This document shows positions 12,001 through 15,000 of a stretch of 64,000 nucleotides of DNA, one piece after another. The stretch is taken from assembly GCF_017348835.2 (NCBI RefSeq), contig NZ_CP071375.1. One strand, written 5' to 3'. Source of the stretch: Escherichia coli (GTDB taxonomy: Bacteria; Pseudomonadota; Gammaproteobacteria; Enterobacterales; Enterobacteriaceae). The position numbers are program-made. The first letter of the stretch is position 1. Each line of letters begins with the position of its first letter.

Positions 12001-15000
12001 ACTGCTCTGGCAGCATGAGACCAGACACGCTTACAACGCGCAGGGGCTGGCGAACCGCTGTATACCGGACAGCCTGCCCGCCGTGGAATGGCTGACCTAC
12101 GGCAGCGGCTGGCTGGCAGGCATGAAACTCGGCGACACACCGCTGGTGGAGTACACCCGCGACCGCCTGTACCGGGAAACGCTGCGCAGATTCGGCCGTT
12201 ATGAACTCACCACCGCTTACACCCCTGCCGGGCAGTTACAGAGCCAGCACCTGAACAGCCTGCAGTATGACCGCGATTACACCTGGAACGACAACGGCGA
12301 ACTCATCCGCATCAGCAGCCCGCGCCATACCCGGAGTTACAGCTACAGCGACTCCGGCAGGCTGACCGGCGTTCACACCACGGCAGCGAACCTTGATATC
12401 CGCATCCCGTATGCCACGGACCCGGCAGGTAACCGCCTGCCCGACCCGGAGCTGCACCCGGACAGCACCCTCAGCATGTGGCCGGATAACCGTATCGCCC
12501 GTGACGCGCACTATCTTTACCGGTATGACCGTCACGGCAGACTGACAGAGAAAACCGACCTCATCCCGGAAGGGGTTATCCGCACGGATGATGAGCGCAC
12601 CCACCGGTACCATTACGACAGTCAGCACCGGCTGGTGTACTACACGCGGACACAATATGCAGAGCCGCTGGTCGAAAGCCGCTATCTTTACGACCCGCTG
12701 GGCCGCAGGGTGGCAAAACGGGTATGGCGACGTGAACGGGACCTGACGGGCTGGATGTCGCTGTCACGGAAACCGGAAGTGACCTGGTACGGCTGGGACG
12801 GCGACCGCCTGACCACAATACAGAACGACAGAACCCGCATCCAGACGATTTATCAGCCGGGGAGCTTCACGCCACTCATCAGGGTTGAAACCGCCACCGG
12901 TGAGCTGGCGAAAACGCAGCGCCGCAGCCTGGCGGATGCGCTTCAGCAGTCCGGCGGCGAAGACGGTGGCAGTGTGGTGTTCCCGCCGGTGCTGGTGCAG
13001 ATGCTCGACCGGCTGGAAAGTGAAATCCTGGCTGACCGGGTGAGTGAGGAAAGCCGCCGCTGGCTGGCATCGTGCGGCCTGACTGTGGAGCAGATGCAAA
13101 ACCAGATGGACCCGGTGTACACGCCGGCGCGAAAAATCCACCTGTACCACTGCGACCATCGCGGCCTGCCGCTGGCGCTTATCAGTGCGGAAGGGGCTAC
13201 AGAATGGTGCGCAGAATACGATGAATGGGGCAACCTGCTGAATGAAGAGAACCCGCATCAGCTGCAGCAGCTTATCCGCCTGCCGGGGCAGCAGTATGAT
13301 GAGGAGTCCGGCCTGTATTACAACCGCCACCGCTATTATGACCCGCTGCAGGGGAGGTATATCACTCAGGATCCGATTGGGCTGAAGGGGGGATGGAATT
13401 TTTATCAGTATCCGTTGAATCCGATAACTGATATTGACCCGTTGGGATTAGCGACCTGTTTATACAGCATAACTTTAAGTATGCTTTCATGCGTTTCAGA
13501 TACGCAAAATGATGATAACTCTTATGATGTGCTTACTATTCCTGTCGCCTCTGGTAATAATGGTAATAATATGCAATGTAAAAATAATCCTGGTTGTACA
13601 CACTTACAAAATAGAGGTCCAATACCTCAAGGGGTATGGAGCTGGAATGTTAATGGTCCTGGAGCAACCAATAGAAAACCTAATGGTATACGTTTAGTAC
13701 CGTCAGCAAATACAGAAACATATAATCGTGATGGATTTTTAACACATAGTTGTTTAAACGCTTTCGGTCCGTCTTTAGGACCTCGATTCTGTTCCGAGGG
13801 TTGTATAACTGGTTCATCTAATGACATGCAAAAATTAAATGAGTTAATATTTTCAGAGCCAGATAGCACATTAACAGTTACGGACTAAAAAATATGGCAA
13901 AGTTATTAACAATTGTATTTTTTTCTCTATTTCTGCGAGTGCAGTTACTGCAAGACAATTTCAGAGAGAGTTAGATTTGGCAGACAAAGCAATATTATGG
14001 GCACTAATATCAGCCAGTACTAAAGAGGGACGAAAAGCGTGTTCACTTAGCTATTTTGCCTGTAAGGCCGCAGAGGCTGAACTCGGACTGGCATATATGG
14101 CTGCGAATGATAACAAGGAATTTCTCACATCCTTATCTAATATAATGAGGTACAAAATAGATGCTGGACTTTCCGAATCCTATACATGCTATTTATTAAG
14201 TAAGGGAAAGATCATAAGACCATATCTGAAAAATCTAAATCCACTCCAACTTGCCGCTGATTGCATTGAAACAGTAAATAAAATAAAAGATAAGAATAAA
14301 AAAATCATTGATATAAATTCAGTTAATATTTGTAGTGATGATAAAAATATAAAATTGAGAGTTAATAGTACTATTATGGCCATTGATGATTCTATAAAAT
14401 GCATCGATGAATAATAACTTAATTTTATTTAAAAATATATTAATAAGTCACTCTCCAGGAGTTTTTTTAACTTAGTTTTATAATGAATACGATAATTAAA
14501 AGTGAAGAAGAAAATAGTTGTATACATATATTCCATGACCCTACATTGTGATCTATAGATTAAATATTTTTTAAATGTGACTGTCATCCTTCAGATAATA
14601 AAGCCATCATCGCAATAGATGGAAAAGCACTCCTGCTCTTTTTTGATTAGAGCCGTCGCAGGAGGAACAACTCATATCATCATTGCGATCTCGACAATGT
14701 ATAGTCTGATCCTTCGGCAGATCAAGACGGATAAAAAATCCAATGAGTTCACACTCATCCCGAACTTCTTAACATAATGGATATTAACGAAAAATCATCA
14801 CAGCCGATGAAATAATATGCAAAAATAATTAGTCCTTACAAGGAGCAAAGTTCCATAATCTCCCCCCTCCCCCTCAATGATCCAAATAAAGATAATGCAT
14901 CCAGCTGGTCATTCTTAGCAGCACTTTTCGCATCACCGAAACATGACTGAAATGGTCGGAGTAAACTGCCACCTGGGCGTAAATGCCGTCGGGTAAGGCA

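What the first reader, a model, noticed from the sequence alone, without database searches (positions are those of the whole stretch)
14415..14873. AT-rich gap downstream of the Rhs immunity gene, probably degenerate
There are about 460 bp of AT-rich sequence with only tiny ORFs between the immunity gene and yibH. In K-12 this interval, as I recall it, holds orphan rhs toxin/immunity fragments (yibA/yibJ/yibG and others). The sequence here may be a deletion scar or a remnant of such an array. A C6TC5 tract at 14860-14873 lies just past the yibH stop.
Basis: inference. Interest (0 to 1): 0.3.

Follow-up and report, generated by a model that had tools for sequence, protein, structure and literature searches.

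The report
Decayed insertion-sequence relic ending Rhs island
The AT-rich gap between the Rhs immunity gene and yibH is mostly the broken remains of an ISAs1-family ("H-repeat") insertion sequence, already annotated in E. coli K-12 as the pseudogene yibU. It is ordinary genomic debris, not a lost toxin/immunity array.

Summary
In detail: 459 bp, 33% GC (left third 21%), no ORF above 52 aa, and a C6TC5 tract at 14862-14873 directly after the yibH stop codon.

The stretch is degenerate, but it is not a deletion scar or a remnant of orphan rhs modules. It aligns end to end, without indels, to the yibV-yibH spacer of K-12 and BL21. It is present in 3,684 of 5,426 complete E. coli genomes. K-12's yibA/yibJ/yibG modules lie upstream of the Imm57 gene, not in this gap.

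Positions 14577-14829 are an internal fragment of an ISEc1-like transposase gene (aa ~96-179 of 378). It is about 80% identical in DNA to ydcC, ybfD and yhhI and carries frameshifts and stops. It corresponds to K-12 pseudogene yibU. Positions 14831-14868 are the last codons, the stop codon and the decayed right inverted repeat of the same 1,291-bp element, so an internal 572 bp has been lost. The C-tract overlies that repeat and the island/core junction.

The whole Rhs island (9519-14872) is absent from 1,522 genomes, where yibF and yibH are 70 bp apart.

The 131 bp at 14446-14576 remain unassigned. Haplotype divergence across the gap is near neutral. No RNA family or terminator was found. This is already known and of low interest.

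The parts
9519..14872 (+). Whole Rhs accessory element (island) inserted between yibF and yibH; the finding is its last 458 bp
   Evidence: BLAST of the JJ1886 empty site against the window: homology stops at 9518 and resumes at 14873, and 32 bp of JJ1886 are replaced. The contiguous empty site is found in 1,522 genomes.
13894..14414 (+). Imm57-family immunity gene, frameshifted in the T7 run at 13918-13924 (context, left border of the finding)
   Evidence: PGAP annotates it as 'Imm57 family immunity protein, frameshifted' in PE164, K-12 and BL21. Pfam Imm57 E 1.9e-48. Adding one T restores a 173-aa protein matching the intact alleles P0008/P0005.
14415..14445 (+). 3' flank of the Tlde1/Imm57 toxin-immunity cassette
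   Evidence: Homology to the same cassette at a different chromosomal site (kdpA) in E. albertii CP043258 runs on past the stop codon. BLAST ends it at 14447 and reading the sequences puts the break at 14445/14446. There the E. albertii copy abuts an H-rpt left inverted repeat (CAGGGAAAGATCA, L009 7805).
14446..14576 (.). 131-bp AT-rich segment (24% GC) of unassigned origin, single-copy and specific to this locus
   Evidence: No paralogue in 5,426 E. coli genomes. Not similar to ISEc1 or its 5' part beyond shuffles. No hit to Rhs C-terminal or immunity proteins. No Rfam match.
14577..14829 (+). H-rpt / ISEc1-like block 1: IS nt 428-681, transposase aa ~96-179, with at least 3 frame changes and several stops. 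Equivalent to K-12 pseudogene yibU (b4652, maps to 14579-14777).
   Evidence: 77-80% nt identity over 14577-14809 to ydcC, ybfD and other ISAs1/ISEc1 transposase genes. tblastn with YdcC gives E 1e-11 and 2e-10 in two frames; YhhI and YbfD give 7e-12 and 1e-12. NCBIfam transpos_ISAs1 E 1.1e-4 on a single frame and 4.4e-16 on hand-joined frames. K-12 annotation plus an indel-free alignment.
14831..14868 (+). H-rpt block 2: IS nt 1254-1291, i.e. the last ~9 codons, the TAA stop (14856-14858) and the decayed right inverted repeat. A 572-bp internal deletion separates it from block 1.
   Evidence: Local alignment to ISEc1 nt 1254-1289 scores 14; 6 of 5,000 shuffles reach that against the whole IS and 0 of 5,000 against its last 80 nt. 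The less decayed L007-type allele scores 18 (0 of 5,000). The IS end was defined where four independent copies diverge.
14862..14873 (+). C6TC5 tract. Its first 7 bases overlie the last 7 bases of the IS right inverted repeat (TGCCCTG in ISEc1). CCCC at 14869-14872 is unassigned junction sequence, and C at 14873 is shared with the empty site.
   Evidence: The L007-type haplotype has C5GC6 instead.
14874..16010 (-). yibH (HlyD-family), core gene and right border of the finding
   Evidence: ORF list; annotation in PE164, K-12, BL21 and JJ1886.

Best explanation
The interval is the non-functional distal end of the yibF-yibH Rhs element (RhsA site). It reads, left to right:
- about 31 bp of cassette 3' flank;
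- 131 bp of AT-rich DNA of unknown origin;
- the wreck of one ISAs1-family insertion sequence (H-repeat, ISEc1-like, 1,291 bp when intact).

The insertion sequence has lost its first 427 bp and an internal 572 bp. What survives is nt 428-681 (K-12 pseudogene yibU) and nt 1254-1291, which hold the transposase stop codon and a decayed right inverted repeat. The right end of the IS lies 4 bp from the point where island DNA meets core DNA, one base before the yibH stop codon. The C6TC5 tract is that decayed repeat plus the junction.

Shown here: the homology, the anatomy, the island boundary, the population distribution and the near-neutral divergence.

Inferred: the sequence does nothing today beyond acting as a spacer between two convergent genes. 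An intact H-repeat probably once sat here, as intact copies still do at the distal ends of RhsB, RhsC and RhsE, and then decayed by deletion and AT-biased mutation.
For: - DNA homology of 14577-14809 to ISAs1/ISEc1 transposase genes at 77-80% identity.
- tblastn with YdcC, YhhI and YbfD gives E 1e-11 to 1e-12, with matches spread over several reading frames.
- NCBIfam transpos_ISAs1 matches.
- The tail is homologous and collinear with the IS 3' end and right inverted repeat.
- ISEc1 was defined as 1,291 bp with inverted repeats CAGGGAAAGATCACG / CAGGGCAAGATTACG.
- K-12 annotates pseudogene yibU at the equivalent position.
- The island boundary is at 14872/14873, and 1,522 genomes have the empty site.
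- Intact H-repeats are the last recognisable component of RhsB and RhsC in K-12. An intact one follows the same Tlde1/Imm57 cassette in E. albertii.
- Divergence between the two deep haplotypes is 6.2-9.1% across the gap, against 11.6% at yibH third codon positions and 4.1% for yibH overall.
- Seven of the nine tail mismatches to the IS are G-to-A.
- No Rfam hit and no terminator-like site. The RNA fold of the yibH-downstream strand is unremarkable, z -0.67.
Against: - The 131 bp at 14446-14576 match nothing, so about 29% of the interval is unexplained.
- The NCBIfam score (59 bits) is below the family cut-off (70), and that score comes from frames I joined by hand. The unbiased supports are the blastn and tblastn results.
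- The right-repeat assignment of the C-tract rests on 3-5 matching bases out of 7. Four C's remain unassigned.
- Absence of function is inferred from sequence alone. No expression or binding data were available.
- The 60 bp at 14813-14873 show no difference between the window and K-12. They do differ at 4 sites from the L007 haplotype.
Confidence: 0.88

Rival explanations
1. One reading: the gap is a deletion scar or decayed remnant of an orphan rhs toxin/immunity array such as yibA/yibJ/yibG.
For: The composition is AT-rich, like Rhs C-terminal/immunity cassettes. The 131 bp at 14446-14576 are unassigned, so a fragment of a further cassette's flank cannot be excluded. A weak 14-nt direct repeat of the post-stop flank occurs at 14415-14428 and 14468-14481.
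Against: The gap aligns without indels to K-12 and BL21, where the orphan array is present but sits upstream of the Imm57 gene. tblastn with K-12 Rhs C-termini, orphan pseudogenes and immunity proteins finds nothing better than E 0.08. The same gap follows the Imm57 gene in every arrangement examined: PE164, K-12, BL21, KKa019 and L007. By my rough estimate the 14-nt repeat is expected about 0.2 times by chance in DNA this AT-rich.
Confidence: 0.07
2. The whole of 14446-14868 is one H-repeat copy. On this reading the 131-bp left segment is the IS's own 5' part (left repeat, leader, first codons), shortened by deletion and decayed past recognition.
For: In E. albertii the same cassette flank is followed immediately by an H-rpt left inverted repeat, at the position equivalent to 14445/14446. 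The segment sits exactly between the cassette flank and IS block 1. The IS leader is itself AT-rich.
Against: Local and collinear alignments of the segment to the IS left 427 bp, to the leader alone, or to the E. albertii sequence score no better than dinucleotide shuffles (379/1000, 523/1000 and 764/1000 shuffles reach the observed score). Block 1, of presumably the same age, is still about 80% identical to ISEc1, so such complete decay of the neighbouring part would be odd.
Confidence: 0.2
3. The interval carries a functional non-coding element: a terminator or 3' UTR for the convergent yibH and Imm57 transcripts, an sRNA, or an H-NS-bound silencing region for the foreign Rhs DNA.
For: A 459-bp spacer between convergent genes is long for E. 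coli. The left part is 21% GC; from general knowledge, such DNA is the kind H-NS binds. 14813-14873 is identical between the window and K-12.
Against: No Rfam match at E<=1. There are 0 terminator-like sites against 0.9 expected, and 9 promoter-like sites against 6.1 +/- 2.3 in shuffles. Fold z-score is -0.67. Divergence between haplotypes is near neutral in every sub-segment, including the tail at 9.1%. In 1,522 genomes yibH does without this sequence altogether.
Confidence: 0.1

Closest known systems
E. coli K-12 pseudogene yibU (b4652), between yibV and yibH
   Same: Positional orthologue. The K-12 feature at 3,769,948-3,770,146 maps to window 14579-14777 in an alignment without indels. The frame disruptions are shared. 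From memory, not from a tool, EcoGene/GenBank describe it as 'pseudogene, H repeat-associated protein'.
   Different: Fifteen substitutions cluster at 14696-14812, where the window carries the allele of a second haplotype. The K-12 feature does not cover the rest of block 1 (14778-14829) or the 3'-end/right-repeat block at 14831-14868 recognised here.
H-repeat (H-rpt) / ISEc1, ISAs1-family insertion sequence (ydcC, yhhI, ybfD/ybfL in K-12)
   Same: About 80% nt identity over IS nt 428-681, and collinear homology to nt 1254-1291 including the transposase stop codon and right inverted repeat. The position at the distal end of an Rhs element is the same as in RhsB, RhsC and RhsE.
   Different: Only 292 of 1,291 bp survive. 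There is no left inverted repeat, no intact ORF and no recognisable target duplication, so it cannot encode a transposase or be mobilised as a unit. In RhsB the IS right end lies 68 bp from the island/core junction; here it lies 4 bp away.
Orphan rhs C-terminal tip / immunity modules (yibJ-yibG, yibS/yibW-yibV in K-12; C-terminal displacement model, Jackson et al. 2009, PMC2935791)
   Same: Same locus (yibF-yibH, locus 10 of PMC2935791), same AT-rich composition, and immediately adjacent to such a module. [quoted passage not shown]
   Different: No Rhs core fragment, no toxin or immunity homology.

Membership tests
ISAs1-family insertion sequence (H-rpt / ISEc1) | Sequence homology to the ISAs1-family DDE transposase gene | tested here: met
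   blastn 77-80% identity to ydcC/ybfD/ISEc1 genes. tblastn E 1e-11 to 1e-12. NCBIfam NF033564 E 4.4e-16, but 59 bits is below the 70-bit cut-off because only about 84 of 314 profile positions are present.
ISAs1-family insertion sequence (H-rpt / ISEc1) | Intact transposase ORF (~378 aa) with a complete DDE domain | tested here: not met
   Only aa ~96-179 and ~370-378 remain, spread over three frames with stop codons. The largest ORF is 52 aa. Pfam DDE_Tnp_1 scores 16.9 bits against a cut-off of 23.
ISAs1-family insertion sequence (H-rpt / ISEc1) | Two terminal inverted repeats (CAGGGAAAGATCACG / CAGGGCAAGATTACG in ISEc1) | tested here: not met
   The left repeat is absent. The right repeat is present only in decayed form...CATAATCTCCCCCCT against ...CGTAATCTTGCCCTG.
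ISAs1-family insertion sequence (H-rpt / ISEc1) | Flanking target-site duplication | not testable with these tools
   The left end of the element is missing, so no pair of flanks can be compared.
K-12 pseudogene yibU (positional orthology) | Same flanking genes and collinear alignment with the annotated K-12 feature | tested here: met
   yibV/Imm57 lies on the left and yibH on the right in both. The alignment has no indels, and the feature maps to 14579-14777.
Orphan rhs toxin/immunity module | Fragment of the Rhs core or core-extension, or a recognisable C-terminal toxin or immunity ORF | tested here: not met
   tblastn with RhsA/B/C, this window's Rhs C-terminus, YibA, YibG, YibV, YhhH, YbfB, YbfC and the pseudogenes yibJ, yibS, yibW, yrhC and ybfO gives a best E of 0.08. 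No Pfam family other than the transposase was found.
Intrinsic terminator / known RNA family | GC-rich hairpin followed by a U-tract, or a match to an Rfam covariance model | tested here: not met
   0 terminator-like sites. 0 Rfam matches at E<=1 over 13300-15300. Fold z -0.67.

The most novel reading that the evidence does not exclude
The right inverted repeat of the H-repeat lies within 4 bp of the exact point where Rhs-island DNA meets core DNA, one base after the yibH stop codon. In E. albertii the same Tlde1/Imm57 cassette abuts an H-repeat left inverted repeat at a different chromosomal site. The most novel reading not excluded is that ISAs1-family H-repeats are not passengers. On this reading they made the distal junctions of Rhs elements and/or carried C-terminal toxin/immunity cassettes between Rhs loci. 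That would give a mechanism for how these cassettes arrive, which recombination-only models of C-terminal displacement leave open. The evidence here is two junctions plus the known co-occurrence. In RhsB the IS end is 68 bp from the junction, and PMC3032704 states that H-repeat transposition has not been observed.
Probability: 0.12. Interest if true: 0.4.

Novelty: already known. Interest (0 to 1): 0.07.

Why it matters
It matters little. The result closes the finding: the gap is a relic already annotated in K-12 (yibU), and nothing suggests a hidden gene, RNA or lost toxin array.

It has three minor uses:
- It fixes the right boundary of the yibF-yibH Rhs island to the base (14872/14873).
- It explains the C-tract as a decayed IS terminal repeat plus junction.
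- It shows that Imm57 gene + spacer + IS relic is the constant distal block of this island, while the upstream toxin modules are reshuffled. That block can serve as an anchor when comparing RhsA loci between strains.

Tried and rejected
- Rfam at permissive E<=1 over 13300-15300: nothing.
- Promoter/terminator scan: no terminators, and promoter-like sites within shuffle expectation.
- RNA fold of the strand downstream of yibH: z -0.67.
- Extending IS homology leftward from 14577: global and local alignments to the IS 5' 427 bp, to the leader alone and to the E. albertii sequence are no better than shuffles.
- Paralogues of the left AT-rich part in E. coli: none.
- A closer IS donor on plasmids: best 81.7%, all ISEc1-like.
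- An exact 22-mer from block 1 in 100,044 species-representative genomes: 0 hits. My guess, from memory, is that the E. coli representative there is an island-free B2 strain.
- The cluster of 15 substitutions at 14696-14812 as gene conversion from an intact IS paralogue: rejected. The patch is identical to a second orthologous haplotype (L007/L008), so it is ordinary allelic recombination.
- Direct repeat D1 and inverted repeat I1 flanking the 131-bp segment: treated as chance in AT-rich DNA.
- Literature searches for yibU and H-rpt returned almost nothing usable. The 1990s Rhs/H-rpt papers from C. W. Hill's laboratory are not in the held library, so statements about them rest on memory.

Full report
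**Context**

The window around the finding reads selA, yibF (-), a 4.2-kb rhs gene (9710-13888), an Imm57-family immunity gene (13894-14414), the 459-bp gap, then yibH and yibI (-) and mtlA. Over the 14 kb compared, it is identical to E. coli PE164 (NZ_CP114128) except for one base. The Rhs C-terminus carries a Tlde1 domain.

**Observation**

- The gap is real. GC is 33.3% against 49.7% for the window, and 21% for 14415-14580.
- No ORF exceeds 52 aa.
- The C-tract is at 14862-14873, not 14860-14873, and ends one base before the yibH stop codon.

**Not a deletion scar**

- The 459 bp occur at 90-100% identity and at least 80% coverage in 3,684 of 5,426 complete E. coli genomes. The copy is always chromosomal and almost always single.
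- The gap aligns without a single indel to K-12 MG1655 and BL21.
Between yibV and yibH, K-12 annotates only the pseudogene yibU.
- The strains differ in what precedes the Imm57 gene. They do not differ in what follows it.

**What the right two-thirds are**

- A sensitive blastn of 14540-14860 against E. coli genomes found, besides the orthologous locus, 77-80% identity over 14577-14809 to internal parts of genes annotated as ISAs1/ISEc1-family transposases: ydcC, ybfD and others.
- tblastn with YdcC matches aa 96-167 and 124-159 in two different frames at E 2e-10 and 1e-11. YhhI and YbfD give 7e-12 and 1e-12.
- NCBIfam transpos_ISAs1 matches one raw frame at 1.1e-4. It matches a hand-joined translation at 4.4e-16, which is 59 bits against a cut-off of 70.
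- K-12's yibU maps to 14579-14777.
- I defined the intact element by comparing four independent copies: ydcC, an E. albertii copy, and K-12 yhhI and ybfL. It is 1,291 bp with terminal repeats CAGGGAAAGATCACG and CAGGGCAAGATTACG.
- On that scale, block 1 of the window (14577-14829) is IS nt 428-681.
- The last 44 bp of the gap, which BLAST missed, align collinearly with IS nt 1254-1289: the last nine codons, the TAA stop and the right repeat. The score is 14; 6 of 5,000 shuffles reach it against the whole IS and 0 of 5,000 against its last 80 nt. A less decayed allele scores 18.
- Seven of the nine mismatches in this tail are G in the IS and A in the window.
- The relic has therefore lost IS nt 1-427 and 682-1253.
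- The IS right end falls at 14868, inside the C6TC5 tract.

**Island boundary**

- In JJ1886 and 1,521 other genomes, yibF and yibH are 70 bp apart.
- Against that empty site, window homology stops at 9518 and resumes at 14873, and 32 bp are replaced.
- The finding is thus the last 458 bp of a 5,354-bp island. The IS right end lies 4 bp from the junction, and the junction lies one base from the yibH stop codon.
- In K-12 RhsB and RhsC, H-repeat copies are likewise the last recognisable component before core genes. In RhsB the IS end is 68 bp from the junction.

**The left third**

- E. albertii CP043258 carries the same Tlde1/Imm57 cassette at the kdpA site. Homology to the window continues about 31 bp past the stop codon and then stops. 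In E. albertii an H-repeat left inverted repeat begins at that point, followed by a full copy split by a group II intron.
- In the window, the next 131 bp (14446-14576, 24% GC) match nothing. They do not match the IS, Rhs or immunity proteins, any other E. coli locus or Rfam.
- Their origin is unresolved. A decayed IS 5' part is possible but unsupported.

**Evolution**

- Three haplotypes were seen:
  - the K-12 type;
  - an 'L007' type, linked to an intact 173-aa Imm57 gene with a signal peptide;
  - the window's type, which is K-12-like except for an L007-type patch at 14696-14812.
- That patch explains why 15 of the 21 window-versus-K-12 differences in 13850-14900 cluster there. It is allelic recombination, not conversion by an IS paralogue.
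- K-12 versus L007 divergence is 6.2%, 7.5% and 9.1% in the three sub-segments. The comparison values are 11.6% at yibH third codon positions and 4.1% for yibH overall. This is close to neutral.

**Function**

- No terminator-like site was found, and promoter-like sites are within shuffle expectation.
- There is no Rfam family match and no unusual RNA fold.
- 28% of genomes lack the sequence entirely.
- I conclude it is an inert spacer made of IS debris. This is an inference, because no expression or binding data could be consulted.

**Comparison with the known**

- The relic corresponds to K-12 pseudogene yibU.
- The link between H-repeats and the downstream ends of rhs genes is in the literature. 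PMC3032704 says C-terminal tips have been annotated as insertion sequences because an H-repeat is present, and that transposition has not been observed. PMC2935791 lists yibF-yibH as rhs locus 10.
- The classic descriptions of H-rpt from the 1990s are recalled from memory only.
- It is a remnant of an ISAs1-family element, not a functional member. The intact ORF and the left repeat were tested and not met.

**Verdict**

It is already known and of low interest.

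Noticed in passing
window 11450-11452: The rhs core gene has an in-frame TGA (ORFs 9710..11452 and 11459..13888). This is the only difference from strain PE164 over 14 kb (T in PE164, G here, at 11451). PE164 and F2_81 both annotate an intact 1,392-aa protein, WP_096220420.1. It is either a very recent nonsense mutation that inactivates the toxin or a sequence error.
   Followed up: partly
window 13894-14414 (T7 run at 13918-13924): The Imm57 immunity gene is frameshifted in a run of 7 T's in this strain, K-12 and BL21. Adding one T restores an N-terminal signal peptide (MAKLLTIVFFFSISASAVTA...) matching intact 173-aa alleles found in other E. coli at the same locus (P0008: 542 member sequences). 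K-12 has a further +1 A at the A-run near 14298, which truncates yibV. A secreted immunity protein fits a periplasm-acting Tlde1-type toxin. Slippage at the T-run was not examined.
   Followed up: partly
window 14696-14812: Fifteen substitutions relative to K-12 lie in 117 bp, while the flanks are nearly identical. The patch matches a second orthologous haplotype (L007/L008), so the window's allele is a short recombinant mosaic.
   Followed up: yes
L009 (E. albertii CP043258.1 742564-754878): The same Tlde1/Imm57 Rhs cassette sits at the kdpA (RhsC-type) site. Its Imm57 gene is interrupted by an IS3-family element. Downstream lie a solo H-repeat left repeat, a full H-repeat split by a group II intron (RT ORF 8987-10342), an orphan rhs fragment and another H-repeat.
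   Followed up: partly
L002 (E. coli J53-KPC_Vir-P15, NZ_CP158674.1): RhsA, with yibA-yibG-yibH downstream, is annotated directly after nikR, where MG1655 has rhsB. This suggests a rearrangement or deletion by recombination between the rhsA and rhsB cores, or an assembly artefact.
   Followed up: no
L003 3919-4791 (BL21(DE3) NC_012892.2): At the rhsA site BL21 has only a 290-aa 'polymorphic toxin type 34 domain' ORF directly after yibF, so most of the rhsA core appears to be deleted. The downstream orphan modules and the gap are retained.
   Followed up: no
L010 7525-7593 (K-12 RhsB distal end): The right end of the intact H-repeat (yhhI) is at 7525. Genomes lacking RhsB begin to match at 7593, leaving 68 bp of island-specific sequence beyond the IS. 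At the RhsA site only 4 bp are left beyond it.
   Followed up: partly
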